Part shown: piece by piece, positions 6,621-6,885 of the stretch
Numbering within the stretch: the stretch's first letter is position 1
Layout: each line of letters opens with the position of its first letter
Source: Naegleria gruberi
Taxonomy: Eukaryota
Length of the DNA: 7,598 nucleotides
Assembly: GCA_000004985.1 (NCBI GenBank)
Contig: GG739125.1
Reading direction: 5' to 3' (one strand)
The notes under the pieces: generated by a model
Told to the model about the DNA's origin: nothing
Seen by the model: the letters and a program-made list of their open reading frames with translations, nothing else
The model's database searches: none
Program-made: the position numbers and the translations under genes

Positions 6621-6738
6621 GGCTACGGCCATATCACGATGAATGCACCTCATCCCGTCCGATTTGAGAAGTTAAGCATCGTCGAGCCACATCAGTACTG
6701 AGGTTGGAGACAACTTGGGAACCTGTGGTGTTGTAGTC
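6621..6738 (+). rRNA. 5S ribosomal RNA gene, eukaryotic type, solitary copy not in an rDNA array
   Basis: The sequence GGCTACGGCCATATCACGATGAATGCACCTCATCCCGTCCGATTTGAGAAGTTAAGCATCGTCGAGCCACATCAGTACTGAGGTTGGAGACAACTTGGGAACCTGTGGTGTTGTAGTC matches the eukaryotic 5S consensus along its length. Shared blocks include GGCCATA, CCCGTCCGAT, AAGTTAAGC, AGTACT, GGTTGGAGAC and the TGGGAA-GGTG-TGTAG tail. Helix I closes between 5' GGCUACGGC and 3' GUUGUAGUC with G:C, G:U and A:U pairs. The length is 118 nt and a T run follows immediately. Ends are accurate to about 2 nt. Confidence 0.92.
6670..6720 (+). promoter_or_regulatory. 5S internal control region for TFIIIA/TFIIIC (box A-like about 6670-6684; box C-like about 6700-6720)
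   Basis: AGTTAAGCATCGTCG sits at +50..+64 and resembles the Xenopus box A AGCTAAGCAGGGTCG. GAGGTTGGAGACAACTTGGG sits at +80..+100 and resembles box C TGGATGGGAGACCGCCTGGG. Positions and sequence both agree with the canonical internal control region of 5S genes (established knowledge applied to the observed sequence). Confidence 0.5.
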
Positions 6739-6743
6739 TTTTT
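6739..6743 (+). terminator. RNA polymerase III oligo-T terminator of the 5S gene
   Basis: TTTTT lies at 6739-6743, directly after the 5S 3' end. A run of at least 4-5 T on the non-template strand is the established Pol III termination signal. Confidence 0.7.
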
Positions 6744-6787
6744 GATTTCATGTCTTTTCTATTCATCAGAATGAACTAAGGGAAAAT

Positions 6788-6812
6788 GAACCTGTGGTGT
6801 TGTAGTCTTTTT
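6788..6812 (+). repeat. Exact 25-nt direct repeat of the 5S 3' end plus terminator (copy of 6719-6743); possible 5S pseudogene fragment or recombination footprint
   Basis: gaacctgtggtgttgtagtcttttt at 6788-6812 is identical to 6719-6743 and is followed by one extra T (6813). The upstream context is also loosely similar, gggaaaatgaacc against ttgggaacc. The spacing between the two copies is 69 bp. Confidence 0.85.
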
Positions 6813-6885
6813 TCTAAAGAGGTTTAAAGTTTATGAAGTTAGGTCATCTATTTACATTTATTTACAGTATGGTGTTACAAATCTT

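What the first reader, a model, noticed from the sequence alone, without database searches (positions are those of the whole stretch)
6621..6813. Solitary 5S rRNA gene with an exact duplicate of its 3' end and terminator 69 bp downstream
The 5S gene at 6621-6738 is complete and canonical, with helix I, box A, box C and a T5 terminator. The last 20 nt of the gene plus TTTTT (6719-6743) then recur verbatim at 6788-6812. I see three possible explanations. (a) It may be the remnant of a partial tandem duplication or unequal crossover between 5S copies. (b) It may be a fail-safe second Pol III terminator that would yield a 3'-extended precursor of about 190 nt. (c) It may be the fossil 3' end of a second, mostly deleted 5S copy. 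Dispersed 5S genes are known hot spots for non-allelic recombination in fission yeasts, so a junction like this could mark such an event.
Basis: seen in the sequence. Interest (0 to 1): 0.5.

Follow-up and report, generated by a model that had tools for sequence, protein, structure and literature searches.

The report
Naegleria 5S gene with duplicated tail
This is one intact copy of the roughly 280 scattered 5S ribosomal RNA genes of the amoeba Naegleria gruberi, followed by a small one-off 69-base insertion that repeats the gene's last 25 bases; it looks like an ordinary mutational scar, not a new genetic element.

Summary
Rfam finds a full-length 5S rRNA gene at 6621-6739 (102.8 bits). The 25-nt string GAACCTGTGGTGTTGTAGTCTTTTT occurs exactly twice, at 6719-6743 and 6788-6812, far beyond chance.

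The window is not fission yeast. It is a whole 7,598-bp leftover scaffold of Naegleria gruberi, made of two ~1.2-kb contigs and a 5,194-N gap. This 5S gene is already listed among 279 dispersed 5S hits (Feng et al. 2012, Table S1, scaffold_378).

Similarity stops sharply at both repeat edges. The 44-nt spacer resembles neither the 5S body nor the sequence after copy 2. So this is neither a tandem duplication nor a decayed longer 5S fragment. None of 16 other 5S loci from Naegleria-like organisms carries a second tail, including one whose 5S is 98.4% identical. It is therefore not a family-wide flank among relatives.

The best reading is a locus-specific A-B-A scar: 44 bp of foreign or filler DNA inserted at the terminator T-run, with a 25-bp target-site duplication. 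The remnant of a neighbouring 5S copy and a low-coverage cloning artefact remain possible. Other N. gruberi loci and the allelic locus could not be reached. Interest is low.

The parts
6621..6739 (+). Complete 5S rRNA gene, one of about 279 dispersed copies in N. gruberi
   Evidence: RF00001 at 102.8 bits, model positions 1-120/120. All 39 consensus pairs are kept in this copy, and 18 pairs show compensatory changes across 12 related genes. Listed as R22614, scaffold_378 6624-6741, in Feng 2012 Table S1.
6719..6743 (+). Repeat copy 1: the last 21 nt of the gene (3' strands of helices V and I) plus the rest of the T5 terminator run (6739-6743)
   Evidence: Exact 25-mer.
6744..6787 (.). 44-nt spacer, the putative inserted or filler DNA; contains a T4 run at 6755-6758
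   Evidence: No significant similarity to the 5S body, to the rest of the window or to 17 other loci, or to plasmid and E. coli collections. T-runs listed.
6788..6812 (+). Repeat copy 2, a detached 5S tail, ending in a T6 run (6808-6813)
   Evidence: Exact 25-mer. Homology to the gene starts abruptly at 6788. Not detected as a partial 5S by Rfam at E<=10.
1160..6353 (.). Run of 5,194 N, the scaffold gap between two ~1.2-kb contigs; it ends 267 nt upstream of the 5S gene
   Evidence: Sequence read directly. The contig carrying P0006 is 7,598 bp, which equals the window length.
1..882 (-). 5' part of a multi-pass membrane-protein gene (context, not part of the feature)
   Evidence: Translation is 100% identical to N. 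gruberi P0001/P0006.

Best explanation
The window is a small leftover scaffold of the Naegleria gruberi genome. It carries one intact member of that species' large dispersed 5S rRNA gene family, which is transcribed by RNA polymerase III and ends at a T5 run.

Directly after the gene lies a locus-specific 69-bp addition with an A-B-A layout. A is the 25-nt gene tail plus T-run and B is 44 nt of unrelated DNA. The ancestral site is inferred to have been a normal gene ending ...GTAGTCTTTTTT/CTAAAG.

The most likely origin is a single event at the 3' end of the gene. A staggered break or a stalled, template-switching replication or repair intermediate formed at the terminator T-run and was repaired with 44 bp of foreign or filler DNA. 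The 25 bp between the two strand breaks were thereby duplicated, as a target-site duplication.

A specific variant of this is a reverse-transcriptase-primed (TPRT-like) insertion. In that case the + strand was nicked inside the T-run, the T's primed on an A-tailed RNA, and the minus strand of the spacer reads ...AATAGAAAAGACATGAAATC followed by AAAAA.

What is shown: the 5S gene, the exact repeat, the sharp homology edges, and the absence of the duplication from relatives. What is inferred: the single-event insertion and the nature of the break.

The scar probably has no function. The gene keeps its own terminator. Polymerase that reads through would meet a T4 run and then the distal T6 run.
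For: - Intact gene: full-length RF00001 hit. Its helices are kept, with compensatory changes relative to 11 related genes.
- Species and family context: the flanking ORF is 100% identical to N. gruberi proteins. The partial protein P0006 sits on a 7,598-bp contig. Feng 2012 lists 279 dispersed hits, including scaffold_378 6624-6741.
- A-B-A layout with sharp edges: the 25/25 identity is flanked by chance-level identity (8/44 left, 11/44 right). The spacer is unrelated to the 5S body (p about 0.5).
- Locus-specific: each of 16 other 5S loci has one 5S and no second copy of its own tail. These are L002, L003 and L004-L017, including L008 whose 5S is 98.4% identical.
- Same source for both copies: both carry the T at alignment column 111 (G-U in helix I), where the closest relatives L008 and L002 have C. 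This fits copying from this very gene.
- Position of the right edge: it lies inside the terminator T-run. T-runs of 4-7 are the normal ends of these genes, so T6 followed by CTAAAG is a plausible ancestral end.
- The spacer is not vector or E. coli DNA.
Against: - No empty site was seen. Neither the allelic copy on the 209,908-bp scaffold nor any orthologous locus could be retrieved.
- The source of the 44-nt spacer is unknown, and no other N. gruberi 5S locus could be examined.
- A 25-bp duplication with only 44 bp of insert is unusual for classical transposons.
- N. gruberi has very little transposable-element DNA (0.28% in one survey). This lowers the prior for a retro-insertion.
- No microhomology is evident at the spacer/copy-2 junction.
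- The scaffold is low-coverage Sanger sequence with apparent read-end errors.
Confidence: 0.45

Rival explanations
1. The second tail is the remnant of a second, neighbouring 5S gene. Two 5S copies once lay in direct orientation. A deletion or unequal recombination then removed the intergenic DNA and the first ~98 nt of the downstream copy, leaving only its last 25 nt.
For: In N. gruberi some 5S hits lie close together. On scaffold_23 two copies are about 1 kb apart. On scaffold_54 a 99-nt partial hit lies 363 nt from a full copy. About 15 of the 279 hits are partial (Table S1). A related organism has a 5S copy with a small deletion in its tail (L006).
Against: It needs a pre-existing gene pair at this site plus a deletion with one end exactly inside the gene. 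There is no trace of further 5S sequence left of 6788. Both tails share the T variant that the closest relatives lack. That would be a coincidence unless the N. gruberi consensus is T or the pair was a recent local duplicate.
Confidence: 0.2
2. The spacer is a copy from another 5S locus. A break inside this gene was repaired by copying from a different dispersed 5S copy, running 44 nt into that copy's 3' flank. The end was then joined back non-homologously in front of the gene's own tail (synthesis-dependent strand annealing plus end joining).
For: About 279 near-identical dispersed templates exist. The layout body-tail-foreign flank-tail-own flank is exactly what this predicts.
Against: The spacer matches no 3' flank among the 16 loci in hand, although these come from other species. 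No microhomology is seen at the rejoining junction.
Confidence: 0.12
3. The duplication is a cloning, sequencing or assembly artefact, or a private variant of a few clones, in a low-coverage leftover scaffold.
For: The window is an entire 7,598-bp scaffold of two ~1.2-kb contigs and a 5,194-N gap. Its gene duplicates, at 100% amino-acid identity, a gene on a 209,908-bp scaffold. Its first 50 bases show a frameshifting 1-nt deletion and clustered mismatches relative to a 98.4%-identical independent contig, as at a poor read end.
Against: Assembly errors collapse repeats rather than create a perfect 25-nt copy separated by 44 unique bases. The spacer is not vector or E. coli sequence. The region lies 366-459 nt inside the contig, not at its edge.
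Confidence: 0.1
4. The duplication is a selected feature: a fail-safe second Pol III terminator, or a 3'-extended precursor element shared by N. gruberi 5S genes.
For: The distal copy ends in a T6 run, stronger than the T5 at the gene end. Secondary T-runs shortly after the first are common in related loci.
Against: None of 16 related loci repeats its tail. A plain T4 run at 6755-6758 already serves as a backup without any 5S sequence. The predicted read-through RNA pairs its 5' end with the distal tail, a non-canonical fold whose energy is not better than shuffles (z -0.95).
Confidence: 0.05

Closest known systems
Dispersed 5S rRNA gene families (N. gruberi, 279 hits in Feng et al. 2012; from my own knowledge also Neurospora, Schizosaccharomyces and Acanthamoeba)
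   Same: A single Pol III gene of about 119 nt with unique flanks, a T-run terminator and the conserved three-helix-arm structure. This very copy is already catalogued as scaffold_378 6624-6741.
   Different: The catalogued family description does not mention a detached tail copy. No relative examined here has one.
Target-site duplications flanking insertions, such as 5'-truncated non-LTR/TPRT insertions or filler-DNA repair of staggered breaks
   Same: Exact direct repeats immediately flank a short unrelated segment. One repeat edge lies in a T-run, so on the other strand the insert abuts an A-run, as at a poly(A)/TSD junction.
   Different: The insert is only 44 nt and has no recognisable element homology. 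The 25-bp duplication is long. No empty site is available. N. gruberi is poor in transposable elements.
Mutsu, the 5S-rRNA-gene-specific non-LTR retrotransposons of animals (PMC5340908)
   Same: A mobile element associated with 5S genes.
   Different: The mapped zebrafish Mutsu target sites lie in the 5' half of the 5S gene, and complete elements are at least 4.5 kb with two ORFs and a poly(A) stretch. Here the gene is intact, the site is at the 3' end and the insert is 44 nt.
Backup (secondary) Pol III terminators downstream of tRNA and 5S genes (for example PMC3141230, PMC4937561)
   Same: Additional T runs of 4 or more lie within about 70 nt of the primary terminator.
   Different: Backup terminators are plain T-runs. 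They do not need a copy of the gene's 3' end, and the duplication is not conserved.

Membership tests
5S rRNA gene (Rfam RF00001) | Full-length match to the covariance model above the gathering score | tested here: met
   102.8 bits against 38, model positions 1-120/120
5S rRNA gene (Rfam RF00001) | Helices I-V maintained, with compensatory changes among relatives | tested here: met
   39 pairs, 18 with changes on both sides across 12 genes. The window copy keeps all pairs, with one G-C to G-U change.
5S rRNA gene (Rfam RF00001) | Pol III terminator (T run of 4 or more) directly at the 3' end | tested here: met
   T5 at 6739-6743. Related genes end in T4-T7.
5S rRNA gene (Rfam RF00001) | Functional internal control region (box A/IE/box C) and expression | not testable with these tools
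   Only sequence resemblance is available. Feng 2012 report an ICR-like sequence but no TFIIIA in N. gruberi.
Simple tandem duplication | Identity at a constant offset over the whole duplicated unit | tested here: not met
   At offset 69 only 25 consecutive positions match. Flanking identity is 8/44 and 11/44.
Truncated 5S pseudogene or fragment longer than the repeat | Residual similarity to the 5S body upstream of the tail copy | tested here: not met
   Local alignment of spacer against 5S body is no better than shuffles (p=0.57, anchored p=0.45). No partial 5S at E<=10.
Insertion with target-site duplication | Exact direct repeats immediately flanking a segment unrelated to the target | tested here: met
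   25-nt repeats flank the 44-nt spacer.
Insertion with target-site duplication | An empty site (single copy of the repeat, no insert) in an allele or orthologue | not testable with these tools
   The allelic scaffold and orthologous loci were not retrievable. L018 stops 41 nt into the gap.
Insertion with target-site duplication | The insert is homologous to a mobile element or another genomic source | tested here: inconclusive
   No match in the window, in 17 loci, or in the plasmid and E. coli sets. The N. gruberi genome itself could not be searched.
Family-wide 3' flank or conserved second terminator of Naegleria 5S genes | The same tail copy at similar spacing in other 5S loci | tested here: not met
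   0 of 16 loci from related organisms have it, including one with a 98.4%-identical 5S. The other N. gruberi copies were not tested.
Mutsu-type 5S-specific retrotransposon insertion | Insertion at the mapped zebrafish Mutsu target sites in the 5' half of the 5S gene, with element ORFs and poly(A) | tested here: not met
   The gene is uninterrupted. The insert is 44 nt and lies at the 3' end. Mutsu features are taken from PMC5340908.

The most novel reading that the evidence does not exclude
The 69-bp unit may be a reverse-transcriptase-primed (TPRT-like) insertion that used the Pol III terminator T-run of a 5S gene as its primer. That would mean an active retro-insertion machinery targets the 3' ends of dispersed 5S genes in Naegleria. 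The same machinery could then have scattered the roughly 280 5S copies through a genome otherwise very poor in transposable elements.
Probability: 0.07. Interest if true: 0.45.

Novelty: new member of a known kind. Interest (0 to 1): 0.12.

Why it matters
It matters little by itself. The gene is a catalogued member of a known dispersed 5S family, and the duplication is a small private scar. Its modest value is as a natural record of how DNA breaks at the 3' end of a highly transcribed Pol III gene get repaired. If the 44-nt insert can be traced in the full genome, it could also hint at how 5S copies move or exchange sequence in a genome with hundreds of dispersed copies. For the scan, the practical lesson is that the window is a low-coverage leftover scaffold of N. 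gruberi, so its structural oddities need read-level confirmation.

Tried and rejected
- Fission-yeast context: rejected. The flanking ORF is 100% identical to N. gruberi proteins.
  - Exact look-ups of P0001, P0006 and two window ORFs found nothing on record.
  - The ORFs of 6830-7598 have no homologues in the protein database.
  - The tail 20-mer is absent from the metagenome and viral collections.
  - 5S core patterns are absent from the bacterial/archaeal genome and viral collections.
- Orthologous locus:
  - L001 (68%-identical paralogue or orthologue, a related Naegleria) has no 5S within 10 kb upstream.
  - L018 (98.4% nucleotide identity) ends 41 nt into the gap.
- A pseudo-protein query built from six-frame translations of the 5S gene recovered two spurious ORFs and so two extra 5S loci, L002 and L003.
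- A 24-mer from the loop C/helix III region recovered 14 metagenomic loci.
- Decayed longer 5S copy: rejected.
- Simple tandem duplication: rejected.
- Independent retrocopy of 5S RNA landing by chance 44 nt from a 5S gene: rejected as too improbable, with no flanking duplication of its own (inference).
- Vector or E. coli origin of the spacer: no support.
- tRNA genes or other Rfam families near the gene: none.
- Literature searches for the gene sequence strings: nothing.

Full report
**1. What is in the sequence**

cmscan against Rfam finds exactly one family above its gathering score in the window. It is a full-length 5S rRNA gene at 6621-6739 on the + strand (102.8 bits against 38; model positions 1-120 of 120). 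No tRNA genes are present.

The 25-mer GAACCTGTGGTGTTGTAGTCTTTTT occurs at 6719-6743 and again at 6788-6812. Both copies are exact and lie 69 nt apart start to start. None of 200 shuffles gives even one match with up to 3 mismatches. The chance expectation for any exact 25-nt repeat in the 2,404 sequenced bases is about 3e-9.

The first copy is the 3' end of the gene, namely the 3' strands of helices V and I, plus its T5 terminator. The second copy ends in a T6 run (6808-6813). A further T4 run lies between them at 6755-6758.

**2. Where the window comes from**

The minus-strand ORF at 1-882 is 100% identical to 'predicted protein [Naegleria gruberi]' (P0001). Cluster look-up shows a partial version of this protein (P0006, EFC35592.1) on a contig of exactly 7,598 bp, the length of the window. 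The complete protein sits on a 209,908-bp scaffold.

Feng et al. 2012 (PMC3369914) list 279 putative 5S genes in N. gruberi. One entry is scaffold_378 6624-6741, which matches the gene's window coordinates to within three bases. So the window is a whole small scaffold of two ~1.2-kb contigs bridged by 5,194 N.

An independent metagenomic contig (L018) is 98.4% identical to window 3-1159. Against it, the first 50 bases of the window show a frameshifting 1-nt deletion and clustered mismatches, as at a poor Sanger read end. The scaffold is probably a low-coverage, unmerged duplicate of a locus on a large scaffold.

**3. The gene family**

Table S1 of Feng et al. spreads the 279 hits over more than 100 scaffolds. 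Most are many kilobases apart. A few pairs lie about 1 kb apart, and about 15 hits are partial. One 99-nt fragment on scaffold_54 lies 363 nt from a full copy. 'Solitary' is thus the normal state of these genes.

To obtain comparison loci I used two routes. First, a pseudo-protein built from the six reading frames of the 5S gene retrieved two spurious ORFs. These led to two loci, L002 and L003. Second, a 24-mer from the loop C/helix III region retrieved 14 metagenomic loci, L004-L017.

Each of these contigs carries a single 5S gene with no other Rfam family or tRNA. Flanks are unrelated between loci apart from one pair. The genes end in T-runs of 4-7.

An alignment of 12 genes supports the canonical structure, with 18 of 39 pairs showing compensatory changes. 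The window copy keeps every pair. It is a functional-type gene.

**4. Anatomy of the duplication**

Similarity between the two copies starts and stops abruptly. At offset 69, only the 25 positions match. The 44 nt to the left of each copy share 8/44 bases and the 44 nt to the right share 11/44. This excludes a simple tandem duplication.

The spacer (6744-6787) aligns to the 5S body no better than shuffled sequence does (p=0.57 local, 0.45 end-anchored). Rfam finds no partial 5S downstream of the gene at E<=10. This excludes a decayed longer 5S fragment.

The spacer matches nothing else in the window or in the 17 other loci held. It also matches nothing in the plasmid or E. coli collections.

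Both tail copies carry a T at alignment column 111, which gives a G-U pair in helix I. The closest relatives have C there: L008, whose 5S is 98.4% identical, and L002. This fits the second copy having been copied from this very gene.

**5. Is it a family feature?**

In none of the 16 other 5S loci does the gene's own tail recur nearby (blastn-short). Among relatives it is not a family-wide flank.

The direct test on the other ~278 N. gruberi loci, and on the allelic copy of this locus, could not be run. No tool reached the N. gruberi assembly. The DNA collections do not contain this species' 5S tail.

**6. Mechanism**

The layout is gene body, A, B, A, flank. It is most simply produced by one event on a normal gene that ended ...GTAGTCTTTTTT/CTAAAG: insertion of B (44 bp) with duplication of the 25 bp (A) between two staggered strand breaks.

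The right edge of A lies inside the terminator T-run. On the minus strand the insert reads ...AATAGAAAAGACATGAAATC followed by AAAAA, which is the geometry of a poly(A)/target-site junction. A retro-insertion primed on the T-run is therefore possible. However, N. gruberi is very poor in transposable elements (0.28% in one survey) and the insert has no known relative.

Template switching or filler capture at a break or stalled fork at the end of a heavily transcribed Pol III gene would give the same product. That Pol III genes pause replication forks is general knowledge from yeast, not tested here. I cannot separate these sub-mechanisms.

I commit to 'single insertion with a 25-bp target-site duplication, no function' at 0.45. 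Four rivals remain:
- A deletion remnant of a neighbouring 5S copy (0.2). Fragments near full copies elsewhere in Table S1 support this.
- Ectopic copying from another 5S locus followed by end joining (0.12).
- An artefact or private clone variant in this low-coverage scaffold (0.1).
- A selected backup terminator (0.05).

**7. Consequences for transcription (inferred)**

The gene keeps its own T5 terminator. Polymerase reading through would first meet the T4 run at 6755-6758 and then the T6 run at 6808-6813.

A 193-nt read-through RNA is predicted to pair its 5' end with the distal tail rather than the proximal one. That is a non-canonical fold, and its energy is not better than shuffles (z = -0.95). 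The 123-nt RNA folds into the canonical 5S shape. Nothing suggests selection for the distal copy.

**8. Comparison with known systems**

The gene is a member of RF00001, and this copy is already catalogued. The scar resembles target-site duplications at insertions. It differs from Mutsu, the known 5S-specific retrotransposons. The mapped zebrafish Mutsu target sites lie in the 5' half of the gene, and complete elements are at least 4.5 kb with two ORFs and a poly(A) stretch. It also differs from Dada DNA transposons, which make 6-7-bp duplications and are reported in U6 and U1 snRNA genes and tRNA genes.

**9. Verdict**

This is a real but ordinary feature: a private 69-bp indel scar beside a known dispersed 5S gene, in a low-quality scaffold. 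Interest is 0.12. The most novel reading that the evidence leaves open is retro-insertion primed on Pol III terminators, possibly linked to 5S dispersal. I give it about 7%.

Noticed in passing
window 1-50: Relative to an independent 98.4%-identical contig (L018) and to protein P0001, the window lacks one base near position 12-13. This breaks the ORF (QLVFGG becomes QLVLEEY). Several mismatches cluster nearby, so it is probably a low-quality read end of a leftover scaffold.
   Followed up: partly
window 1160-6353: A run of 5,194 N makes up 68% of the window. The window is an entire 7,598-bp N. gruberi scaffold whose gene duplicates, at 100% amino-acid identity, a gene on a 209,908-bp scaffold. 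It is likely an unmerged allelic or redundant piece.
   Followed up: partly
window 6755-6758: A T4 run lies inside the spacer, 12 nt after the primary terminator. It is a plain backup terminator that precedes the duplicated tail.
   Followed up: yes
window 1-882 (-); P0001, P0002, P0003, P0007: A multi-pass membrane protein with no Pfam hit. Homologues were found only in Naegleria-like sources (58-99% identity).
   Followed up: no
L006 1-120: A related 5S copy has lost 5 nt of its 3' tail (GAGTACTGTACTC becomes GAGTACTC, between TACT repeats). Rfam aligns only model positions 7-113. This is a small slippage deletion at the same end of the gene.
   Followed up: partly
L005 and L015, about 95-205 nt downstream of their 5S genes: The two loci share a 79%-identical segment of about 109 nt downstream of the 5S gene. 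All other flanks among the 16 loci are unrelated. The nature of the shared segment is unknown.
   Followed up: no
L014, flanks of the 5S gene at 1035-1153: Short inverted and direct repeats (25-43 nt, 84-96% identity) occur between the upstream and downstream flanks of this divergent 5S gene.
   Followed up: no
L002 224-802 (P0004): A database 'protein' of 192 aa is a spurious ORF that reads straight through a 5S rRNA gene with TGA taken as sense. P0005 likewise reads the antisense strand of a 5S gene. Such calls were useful as handles to find 5S loci.
   Followed up: yes
Feng 2012 Table S1, scaffold_54 275852-275950 and 276314-276430: A 99-nt partial 5S hit lies 363 nt from a full-length copy, so fragments next to intact 5S genes occur elsewhere in the N. 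gruberi genome.
   Followed up: no
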